Shown here one piece after another: positions 394 to 62,509 of a DNA stretch of 64,000 nt. This DNA comes from an uncultured Acidobacteriota bacterium (GTDB taxonomy: Bacteria > Acidobacteriota > Terriglobia > UBA7540): contig CAWDSK010000009.1 in assembly GCA_963804995.1 (NCBI GenBank), forward strand, positions 288,001 through 352,000, given 5' to 3'. The position numbers and the translations under genes are program-made. Below the pieces are notes generated by a model. The model was given only the letters and a program-made list of their open reading frames with translations, was not told the origin of the DNA and made no database searches. Position 1 is the first letter of the stretch. Each line of letters starts with the position of its first letter.

Positions 394-419
394 CATTTGC
401 GTTGTAGGTTCTTTGACAA

Positions 420-610
420 CTGATGTTCCTGCGGTGCCCCGTTCGTACCACGGGGGAAAAGGAAAGGCCGTGCGAATCGGCTGCGGTCCCGCCACTGTAA
501 TCGGTGAGCCGCATCCTCTCAGGCGAAGTTGCCAGCCACTGTTCTGCCATTGGCAGATTGGGAAGGCTGAGGATGAGGTGTTGACCCGGAAGCCAGGAAA
601 CCTGCCCAGG
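420..610 (+). ncRNA. Cobalamin (AdoCbl) riboswitch
   Basis: Hallmarks: cggtgcccc..aaaaggaaaggccgtgcgaatcggctgcggtcccgccactgtaa..gccactg..gggaaggc and B12 box aagccaggaaacctgcc; precedes a TonB receptor. Confidence 0.92.
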
Positions 611-662
611 AATTTTCTCTCAGCCTAACTCTTCTACGGAAAGAGTCCTGAGGAAGACTGCG

Positions 663-49470: not shown

Positions 49471-49516
49471 AAAAACGAAAAGCCCCTGGTTGTACGCTGA
49501 CCGCACAACCAGGGGC
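49471..49516 (-). terminator. Intrinsic terminator of the small transcription unit
   Basis: 12-bp perfect stem gcccctggttgt/acaaccaggggc followed by ttttcgttttt on the minus strand. Confidence 0.8.
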
Positions 49517-49635
49517 CCGGGTAACTGATGGGTTTGGCTTCCCGTTTTTCGATCGGGACGGCGCCCTGCAGCGCCTTGCCAGAAAACCCTCTCCCGCTAG
49601 AGAGAGGGACCCACGAATGCGCGCGTGCTTAGCGC

Positions 49636-49677
49636 CTAAGCCTCAGCACCCTCGCTACAGTAACTTTCGATCGACAT
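49636..49677 (-). CDS. Candidate 13-aa micro-ORF MSIESYCSEGAEA
   Basis: Directly preceded by AGAAAGGAGGTGATCC (GGAGG 6 nt before the ATG). Confidence 0.45.
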   Translation of the reverse strand: MSIESYCSEGAEA

Positions 49678-49705
49678 GGATCACCTCCTTTCTAGCGATG
49701 GGGCG

Positions 49706-49734
49706 ATAATAAGACTCCATGTCCGTCGAGTCAA
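49706..49734 (-). promoter_or_regulatory. Sigma70-type promoter of the small transcription unit
   Basis: TTGACT-17 bp-TATTAT. Confidence 0.7.
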
Positions 49735-49775
49735 GAGAAAAAAATGGCGAAAATAGGGCGAAAACCGCACGGAAA

Positions 49776-50499
49776 TCACACTTGGTACTGACCCGTGAGG
49801 GCGCGCCAACGTAGAACCAGTAAGTCCAAAATCATGAGCAGGGAGTCGCGGAGATAATGCACTCGGGTGGCGGGGTCGTTGTTCCAGCGCACGGGAACTT
49901 CCACGATCTTTCCTCCCAGGCGCTGGATGAGAAAGAGCACTTCTGGGTCGAAGCCGAAACCTTCCACGCGTTGCAGCTCGAAGGCGCGTCGCGTGGTCTC
50001 GCGGCGAAAGAGTTTGAATCCGCACTGCGTGTCTTGGATGCGCAGTCCCGTGAACATCCGAACCAAAAGGTTGAAGAATCGTCCTCCCCATTCGCGGAAC
50101 TGCGACTGGTGAATGCCGATCAGCTCCCGCTGCAACGCCCTGGAGCCCACGGCCACGTCGGCGCCGGAGGATTCGAGCGCCCTCAGCAGCTTGTCCGCTT
50201 CTGCGATGGGGGCGGAAAGGTCGGCATCGGTGAAGAGGATGAACTCGCCGCGCGCTTCCAGCACTCCGTGCCGAACTGAAAAGCCTTTGCCACGGTTGCG
50301 ATCGTTGGGAAGCACTCGGACTTCCGGGTGGCGCGCTACAACTTGCACGGTGTCGTCCGTTCGAGCCGTCATCCACCACGATCAGTTCGCTAGAGAAATT
50401 CTTCGCGCCCAAATAGCCTCGAATCGCTTCAAGTGAGCTGTGGATGCGACCAGCCTCGTTATACGCGGGGATCACGACACTCAGGAACGGTTCGGACAT
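49776..50499 (-). CDS. Glycosyltransferase family 2 (Dol-P-glucosyltransferase-like), one-base insertion at ~50360
   Basis: SVVIPAYNE...VVDDGS in one frame; NRGKG, FTDADLS, DTQCGFK, FGFDPE in the next; deleting one A gives VVDDGSTDDT. Confidence 0.9.
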
Positions 50500-62432: not shown

Positions 62433-62509
62433 GCGCCCGTAGCTCAGCTGGATAGAGCACTTGCCTACGAAGCAAGGGGTCGGGTGTTCGAATCACCCCG
62501 GGCGCACCA
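62433..62509 (+). tRNA. tRNA-Arg(ACG)
   Basis: Acceptor GCGCCCG/CGGGCGC+ACCA, D-arm gctcagctggatagagc, anticodon arm cttgc-ctACGaa-gcaag, T-loop ttcgaat. Confidence 0.97.

What the first reader, a model, noticed from the sequence alone, without database searches (positions are those of the whole stretch)
49471..49734. Complete mini transcription unit with a 17-nt complement of the 16S rRNA 3' end, 13-codon ORF and structured tail
Seen (minus strand): TTGACT-17-TATTAT promoter; about 6 nt after the predicted start comes AGAAAGGAGGTGATCCA, whose last A begins ATG. ORF MSIESYCSEGAEA* has its stop inside a hairpin (gcttag-gcg-ctaagc). Next come hairpin ccctctctc..gggagaggg, a plausible three-way junction (gggtt..tggc / ggcgc-gcgcc / cccg-cggg / gccaaaccc) and a strong terminator. 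Established: TGGATCACCTCCTTTCT is the typical bacterial 16S 3' terminus, and ordinary SD sites pair only 4-9 nt. Inference: an RNA built to clamp 30S subunits (ribosome sponge, 5' stabiliser or maturation aid), a dual-function sRNA, or a highly translated micropeptide. It is independent of the flanking genes.
Basis: partly seen in the sequence, partly recalled or inferred. Interest (0 to 1): 0.78.

Follow-up and report, generated by a model that had tools for sequence, protein, structure and literature searches.

The report
Ribosome-docking mini-mRNA of soil Acidobacteria
This is a real, free-standing small RNA gene whose start matches the whole tail of the ribosome's 16S RNA and whose tiny reading frame ends inside a conserved fold; it is a divergent relative of RNAs already catalogued in other bacteria, and what they do at the ribosome is still unknown.

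Summary
The unit is real. Promoter, 17-18-nt complement of this genome's 16S tail, 13-codon frame and terminator are present. A model finds it in 117 of 132 family genomes. All 92 distinct family sequences keep frame and promoter; named hits are uncultured Terriglobia. Instead the last codons pair with the bases before the terminator (98% paired). The design is published: rreB/rreR of Alphaproteobacteria (PMC5711450) bind 30S, translate weakly and have no known function. By sequence it links to Rfam Ms_IGR-5: it scores 12.9 bits (cut-off 45), Terriglobia relatives up to 42.5. Not found in my literature searches: Ms_IGR-5-type RNAs carry the same mini-frame, with an SD-like GAGG exactly five codons before the stop (114 of 119 metagenome hits) while the peptide drifts. 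Best reading: a translation-gated RNA switch, peptide incidental; this is inferred, untested. The scan noted this class before in other phyla. Verdict: new variant of a known, functionally unexplained kind.

The parts
49729..49734 (-). -35 hexamer TTGACT
   Evidence: TTGACN-17/18-TANNNT in 92 of 92 distinct family sequences
49706..49711 (-). -10 hexamer TATTAT; transcription start inferred near A49699
   Evidence: the start is inferred from spacing, not mapped
49677..49694 (-). 18-nt exact complement of this genome's 16S rRNA 3' end (extended Shine-Dalgarno, SD1); last A is the A of AUG
   Evidence: duplex -31.5 kcal/mol against -7.6 mean and -21.3 best of 2500 sampled ORF starts; 17-mer in 85 of 92
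49636..49677 (-). 13-codon ORF MSIESYCSEGAEA plus TAG
   Evidence: frame kept in 92 of 92, 13-16 aa; last codon GCN in all four forms; stop TAG 82, TAA 10
49650..49653 (-). GAGG motif five codons before the stop (SD-like, 'SD2'; weak in this family)
   Evidence: 38 of 38 Acidobacteriota-phylum sequences, 114 of 119 pattern hits; -6.5 kcal/mol here, matched by 17% of background ORF ends
49643..49651 (-). helix A, 5' arm (GGGTGCTGA, inside the ORF)
   Evidence: 98.3% paired over 64 sequences
49639..49642 (-). helix B, 5' arm (includes the last sense codon)
   Evidence: 95.3% paired, one pair with two-sided changes
49621..49635 (-). short hairpin right after the stop codon
   Evidence: 92.2% paired, 2 of 4 pairs with two-sided changes
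49587..49608 (-). hairpin P3; its 5' arm and loop can alternatively pair with the RNA's 5' end and SD1
   Evidence: 6 of 7 pairs with two-sided changes; the SD-sequestering alternative is the minimum-energy fold here but shows no covariation
49560..49575 (-). hairpin P4 (GGCGC/GCGCC)
   Evidence: 95.0% paired
49541..49557 (-). variable hairpin P5
   Evidence: length varies among relatives; pairs not counted
49536..49539 (-). helix B, 3' arm, followed by a conserved AA-pyrimidine linker
49519..49528 (-). helix A, 3' arm, directly before the terminator
   Evidence: its two commonly varying positions change mainly between C and U opposite G; one bulged base in this genome
49471..49518 (-). intrinsic terminator (17-pair stem and U-tract)
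   Evidence: 10 of 16 counted pairs with two-sided changes

Best explanation
A housekeeping-promoter, stand-alone mini-mRNA of about 230 nt whose working part is the RNA, not the peptide. Shown: SD1 can pair with the whole free 16S tail; a 13-codon frame follows; its last four codons form helices A and B with the bases before the terminator and close a multi-hairpin domain. Inferred from rreB: the 30S binds tightly, initiates weakly, and translation speeds decay. Inferred from anatomy: a ribosome must melt helices A and B to reach the stop; with the stop in the A site, the GAGG five codons back lies 8 nt from the P-site codon, SD spacing, and would hold the post-termination ribosome on the RNA. 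The RNA is thus a translation-gated switch whose fold and lifetime report how freely ribosomes initiate and recycle. What reads that signal is unknown.
For: Frame, start and stop kept in 92 of 92 while the N-terminal codons vary; AGC GAG GGT GCT GAG shows no synonymous change, which points to RNA-level constraint (nine of these bases were fixed by the pattern, but the 29 BLAST-found loci agree). Helix A 98% paired, with compensatory changes visible between families; the cognate arm beats other families' arms in 30 of 38. Stop exactly five codons after GAG in 114 of 119 hits of a pattern that did not specify a stop, with at least 25 different five-residue endings. With the 30S footprint blocked, helix A forms in 82 of 87. 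rreB: 30S co-sedimentation, weak translation, half-life 10 to 37 min on start-codon loss (PMC5711450). An SD 9-14 nt before a stop slows mRNA release 50-fold in vitro (PMC5737721).
Against: No experiment on this family. SD2 is weak here (-6.5 kcal/mol; 17% of background ORF ends match it), and the fixed stop position could follow from the helices alone. rreB-type RNAs lack GAGG at -5 (0 of 10), so their data may not carry over. The SD-sequestering fold has no covariation and dominates in only 27 of 87 relatives. In the metagenome set the cognate arm beats a selection-matched control in only 70 of 107. No in-frame ATG/GTG/TTG in 17 of 119 hits. No output or target was identified.
Confidence: 0.5

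Rival explanations
1. The peptide is the product; the RNA structure only tunes its low expression.
For: SEGAEA is invariant in 92 of 92 family sequences, the last codon varies synonymously and indels are whole codons. RreB and RreR are conserved within their clades.
Against: Five of the six invariant codons show no synonymous change; C-termini differ across relatives (EVADC, EVAGR, EVAVS, EVAET and others); length 13-22 aa in the phylum; synthetic RreB is unstructured.
Confidence: 0.15
2. The RNA aids 30S maturation or reactivation: by pairing 16S nt 1532-1534 it competes with the alternative neck helix of inactive or immature subunits.
For: SD1 covers the GGAUCA segment; in other Terriglobia families the complement runs further (CCAG, CCAGCC) and the start codon lies 12-15 nt away, poor for initiation. 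The inactive state pairs 921-923 with 1532-1534 (PMC11182017 abstract); the mapping to E. coli numbering is from my own knowledge.
Against: Does not explain the fixed frame and stop. rreB was far less abundant than ribosomes. The model gave no true hit in several families of the class (the seven f7/f5 hits read were rDNA or unrelated).
Confidence: 0.1
3. A trans-acting small RNA whose bound 30S only shields the 5' end; hairpin loops or the pyrimidine arm pair with mRNA targets or bind a protein.
For: Conserved hairpins P3 and P4 and a conserved P3 loop. 5' stabilisation by a stalled 30S is known from Bacillus mRNAs (recalled, no call).
Against: The inner domain is not conserved beyond the family, whereas the ribosome-facing parts are. 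In rreB the start codon destabilises the RNA. No target search was run.
Confidence: 0.12
4. Ribosome sponge or storage device for 30S subunits.
For: -31.5 kcal/mol duplex, stronger than all 2500 sampled starts; summed contig depth near 1000 in one soil metatranscriptome (a hint only).
Against: 20-fold rreB overproduction left growth unchanged; a pure sponge needs no conserved stop position.
Confidence: 0.09
5. Attenuator leader of the downstream gene.
For: Short ORF, alternative folds and terminator; SD-like sequences near leader-peptide stops are known.
Against: Downstream neighbours fall into 25 clusters among 77 loci and the commonest are convergent; no antiterminator in the folds examined; no amino-acid-rich tract.
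Confidence: 0.03
6. Chance match or rDNA remnant.
For: The 18-mer is identical to the rDNA complement.
Against: Similarity ends at 18 nt; conserved promoter, frame and covarying helices.
Confidence: 0.01

Closest known systems
Rfam RF02471 Ms_IGR-5 (actinobacterial sRNA, function unknown)
   Same: 5' extended SD; GAGG five codons before a stop (the Rfam consensus reads EVAAR*; members at 80-164 bits encode such frames); helix with the pre-terminator bases, AAU-pyrimidine linker, terminator. Model R1 aligns end to end to true members at 16-30 bits (SD-only matches score about 8-19).
   Different: The window scores 12.9 bits against a cut-off of 45. SD has GATCC rather than GGTCC and is a perfect 18-mer; frame ends EGAEA, not EVxxx; inner domain has four hairpins. 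Rfam lists it as a non-coding sRNA.
rreB / rreR small mRNAs (Hahn et al., RNA Biol 14:1353, PMC5711450); Rfam RF01867 CC2171
   Same: Stand-alone small transcript, 16-17-nt complement of the 16S tail ending in the first base of the start codon, 14-18-codon ORF, structured tail; SD partly in a predicted stem.
   Different: rre has 7-nt spacing and mostly GTG; here 6 nt and ATG. No sequence likeness beyond the SD (19.9 bits against 75). No GAGG at -5 in 10 of 10 CC2171-type loci with the SD motif. Published only for Alphaproteobacteria.

Membership tests
rre small mRNAs (Hahn 2016) | at least 16 nt perfect complementarity to the 16S 3' end | tested here: met
   18 nt to own rDNA; 17-mer in 85 of 92
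rre small mRNAs (Hahn 2016) | complement ends in the first base of the start codon of a short conserved ORF | tested here: met
rre small mRNAs (Hahn 2016) | GTG start and 7-nt spacing (the paper notes an ATG exception in Azospirillum) | tested here: not met
   ATG at 6 nt in 92 of 92 (fixed by the pattern for loci, free for the 29); 7 nt in 10 of 10 CC2171-type loci
rre small mRNAs (Hahn 2016) | own promoter and terminator | tested here: met
   (predicted, not mapped)
rre small mRNAs (Hahn 2016) | 30S binding, weak translation, start-codon-dependent decay | not testable with these tools
   needs gradients, reporters and half-life assays
Rfam RF01867 CC2171 | gathering score 75 bits | tested here: not met
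   19.9 bits, from the SD motif
Rfam RF02471 Ms_IGR-5 | gathering score 45 bits | tested here: not met
   12.9 bits; no match at E <= 1 genome-wide; Terriglobia relatives reach 39-42.5 in 4 of 20 loci scanned
Rfam RF02471 Ms_IGR-5 | consensus motifs: 5' SD block, GAGG-stop block, AAUUCC linker, CAGUCACC block, terminator, in that order | tested here: met
   all present in variant form; reciprocal end-to-end alignment of R1 to true members (loci pre-selected by an SD pattern)
Rfam RF02471 Ms_IGR-5 | GAGGUG (Glu-Val) at the ORF end | tested here: not met
   GAGGGU (Glu-Gly) in 92 of 92 (partly fixed by the pattern, free in the 29 loci)
6S RNA / tmRNA / SRP RNA | Rfam or ARAGORN match | tested here: not met
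   no hit in the window; tmRNA on C4, SRP on C2; no 6S match in the 92%-complete genome

The most novel reading that the evidence does not exclude
Ms_IGR-5, this family and their relatives form one old, multi-phylum class of ribosome-test RNAs with two anti-SD docking sites: one for initiation and one placed at initiation spacing from the stop codon. A single round of translation opens the RNA's closed domain and parks the post-termination 30S on it, so the RNA senses, or directly assists, 30S activation and recycling. That would be an unrecognised RNA component of translation quality control.
Probability: 0.2. Interest if true: 0.85.

Novelty: new variant of a known kind. Interest (0 to 1): 0.5.

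Why it matters
Mini-mRNAs with a full-tail SD are kept at about one copy per genome in several phyla, yet no function is known. The rule found here (GAGG five codons before the stop, last codons locked in a helix with the 3' end, peptide free to drift) turns a catalogue entry into a precise test, and it can be run in culturable carriers of Ms_IGR-5 such as Mycobacterium smegmatis or Streptomyces. It also suggests that an Rfam family listed as non-coding is translated. This window adds one divergent branch; the class itself is published and was noted by this scan before.

Tried and rejected
Rfam at gathering score: only a cobalamin riboswitch and a tRNA elsewhere in the window. One search used a pattern with the wrong spacing for this element: it tested only 7-nt spacing and matched 3 of 301 genomes, not G000; two are SDs of ordinary long genes, one (L033) is a real relative. 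(6-nt spacing, GATC) matched G000 and 1 of 300 others; that scarcity is due to the GGTCC variant and longer spacing elsewhere, not to absence. Phages: 0 hits with the family pattern, 1 hit without a short frame with the wide pattern. Five non-Acidobacteriota hits among the 80 listed lack promoter, full SD and family frame and were dropped as chance. Automatic terminator picking failed for about five of 38 loci (the three f3 loci, L161, L171); they were left in the count. Expression: only small word shares (0.04-0.07) in 8 RNA runs; 4 of 11 listed runs were laid as contigs. X1 has strain variants over 49526-49712 at summed depth up to 1049; X5 and X8 cover only the terminator end. Contigs show neither ends, strand nor level, and one reaches the -10 box, so DNA is not excluded. 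A recalled link to Streptomyces scr4389 could not be verified and was dropped. No protein-homology, fold or complex job was run: the peptide is below the tools' length limits.

Full report
Observation. The match to this genome's own 16S end is 18 nt, and the 14-mer core occurs only in the rDNA and here; chance expectation for the 17-mer is 5e-6 per window. The duplex with the tail is -31.5 kcal/mol; none of 2500 sampled ORF starts (of 5423) reaches that. Rfam has no hit at gathering score here.

Conservation. BLAST found the unit in 30 of 36 other genomes of the family and 0 of 24 outside it. A covariance model from 64 sequences matched 119 of 132 family genomes, 117 of them at E <= 1e-11 and two only weakly (E about 1e-5, terminator part), nearly always one copy. 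Eight of these genomes are flagged unpublished; without them the tally is 111 of 124, and G411 also enters the 20 of 20. A named scan gave 96 hits; of the 80 listed, 75 are uncultured Acidobacteriota (Terriglobia, two titled subdivision or gp 13) and 5 are chance. Among 92 distinct family sequences all keep a TTGACN-17/18-TANNNT promoter 15-17 nt before GGAGG and an open frame of 13-16 codons; length changes are whole codons although the pattern allowed any gap; the last codon is GCN in all four forms and the stop is TAG (82) or TAA (10). The early codons vary freely, while AGC GAG GGT GCT GAG never changes, even synonymously. So the frame is read, but its end is constrained as RNA.

Context. 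The upstream neighbour is mostly a family-2 glycosyltransferase (37 of 81 loci, plus 9 that I read as antisense shadows of it) or pcm (12); downstream neighbours fall into 25 clusters among 77 loci, the commonest convergent (NUDIX, LOG, M20). It is not a leader.

Structure. Over 64 sequences chosen by hand for diversity from the 92, a fold in which the last codons pair with the bases before the terminator (helix A 98.3%, helix B 95.3%) and enclose hairpins P2-P4 is 93.2% paired, with 20 of 46 pairs showing two-sided changes, mostly in P3 and the terminator; 0 of 500 shuffles reach this, though kinship inflates that control. Helix A itself has only one-sided changes within the family, because its 5' arm is invariant. 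For the window sequence alone the lowest-energy fold buries SD1 in a rod with the P3 arm (probability 0.96); across 87 complete relatives this dominates in 27 and helix A in 59, and with a 30S footprint blocked helix A forms in 82. The rod has no covariation, so a two-state switch is possible, not shown.

Wider family. In the class, R1 matched 46 of 130 genomes outside the family. I read 41 of these 46 loci: 33 are true relatives in six families, 6 are rDNA, 2 unrelated. The relatives mostly have GAAAGGAGGTGGTCC, start codons 5-15 nt from the SD core, and frames ending EVAEA, EVAAA, EVADC, EVTAV and similar. Four of 20 loci scanned score 39-42.5 bits on Ms_IGR-5 (cut-off 45), and the Rfam consensus itself reads as EVAAR followed by a stop. 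Five of 20 scanned are true Ms_IGR-5 members at 80-164 bits, and R1 aligns end to end to them at 16-30 bits, against about 8-19 for SD-only matches. Helix A arms fit their own partner better than other families' in 30 of 38; in the metagenome set 99 of 107 against a plain control but only 70 of 107 against a selection-matched one (8 truncated loci dropped). The link to Ms_IGR-5 is therefore transitive and motif-based, and the window is below the family's cut-off.

Known systems. Earlier scan notes pointed to Hahn et al.. I read parts 1-4 of 6 of that text (introduction to discussion) and both parts of its supplement text; figures, including alignments, were not visible (PMC5711450). rreB has a 17-nt SD and 14 codons, binds 30S, is weakly translated, is stabilised by loss of its start codon, and its overproduction does not affect growth; function is unknown. 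Its primers match the 5' end of the CC2171 consensus, and locus L328, which encodes the frame of the published oligonucleotide, scores 44.5 bits on CC2171; I infer that CC2171 is the Rfam form of rre. None of 10 such loci (of 12 fetched) has GAGG at -5. So the window works like rre by design but descends with Ms_IGR-5 by sequence. L033, from another class of this phylum, has both the rre-type start (33.6 bits on CC2171) and the EVxxx end, a possible bridge. On IGR-5 I saw only passages: uncharacterised and NAD-capped in M. smegmatis (10.1101/2021.12.14.472595; supplement closed), expressed in Streptomyces (PMC8079986; PMC8780764), listed in a cold-stress study (PMC10454040). CC2171 expression: 10.1101/2022.01.24.477521, passages; PMC11701678, one passage. 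The original IGR-5 paper (Li et al. 2013) was not read. Searches listed no paper that, by title, abstract start or the passages read, reports an ORF in Ms_IGR-5 or such an RNA in Acidobacteriota; most subscription journals are outside the library, and unseen supplements of small-protein surveys may list the frame.

Mechanism. Shown: unit, frame, helices, fixed GAGG-to-stop distance. Inferred: tight 30S binding and weak initiation (from rreB); melting of helices A and B by the ribosome (geometry); retention after termination, since an SD 9-14 nt before a stop slows mRNA release 50-fold (PMC5737721, passages) and GAGG lies 12-15 nt before the stop here. Against: in this family the site is weak (-6.5 kcal/mol, 17% of background), though in 12 of the 13 other EVxxx loci scored it is -9.8 or stronger, within the top 5%. 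An alternative is action on immature or inactive 30S through nt 1532-1534 (PMC11182017, abstract only). Expression is only hinted: strain variants at high summed depth confined mostly to the unit in one of four runs laid.

Verdict. Real, conserved, a divergent Acidobacteriota variant of a described but unexplained kind. Interest 0.5: the class is published and repeatedly seen by this scan, but the five-codon rule makes its function directly testable.

Noticed in passing
window 50499-49776 (-): The upstream family-2 glycosyltransferase is split over two frames near 50360 (ORFs 49681..50499 and 49776..50372), while a relative reads through: a frameshift or an assembly error.
   Followed up: partly
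window 50537-50508 (-): A second sigma-70-type promoter, TTGACT-18-TATAGT, ahead of the glycosyltransferase.
   Followed up: no
window 49410-49340 (-): Degenerate short repeats (GCAGTA/GGCAGT-like) after the terminator; similar tracts follow the unit in relatives and attract unrelated contigs.
   Followed up: no
window 48994-45635 (-): A 1119-aa outer-membrane beta-barrel receptor-like gene (PF25183, PF13620) sits between the unit and the LOG/NUDIX/M20 genes that adjoin it directly in relatives: probably an insertion.
   Followed up: partly
window 414-623 (+) and 62433-62506 (+): Cobalamin riboswitch (94.6 bits) and a tRNA.
   Followed up: no
L033 1345-1528 (-), genome G342: Relative from another class with rre-type start (7-nt spacing, GTG) and EVAGF end; scores on both CC2171 (33.6 bits) and R1 (29.7 bits).
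   Followed up: partly
L181-L183, L186, L187, L199: In one Terriglobia family the SD has a one-base insertion and the complement runs on into CCAGCC or CCAGTC, which would pair into the last 16S helix.
   Followed up: partly
G000 whole genome: No 6S RNA match; the genome is 92% complete and the model may miss divergent forms.
   Followed up: no
G000:C3 near 133839 (-) and C6 near 1582756 (+): Other AAAGGAGGTGA sites in apparently non-coding surroundings; not examined.
   Followed up: no
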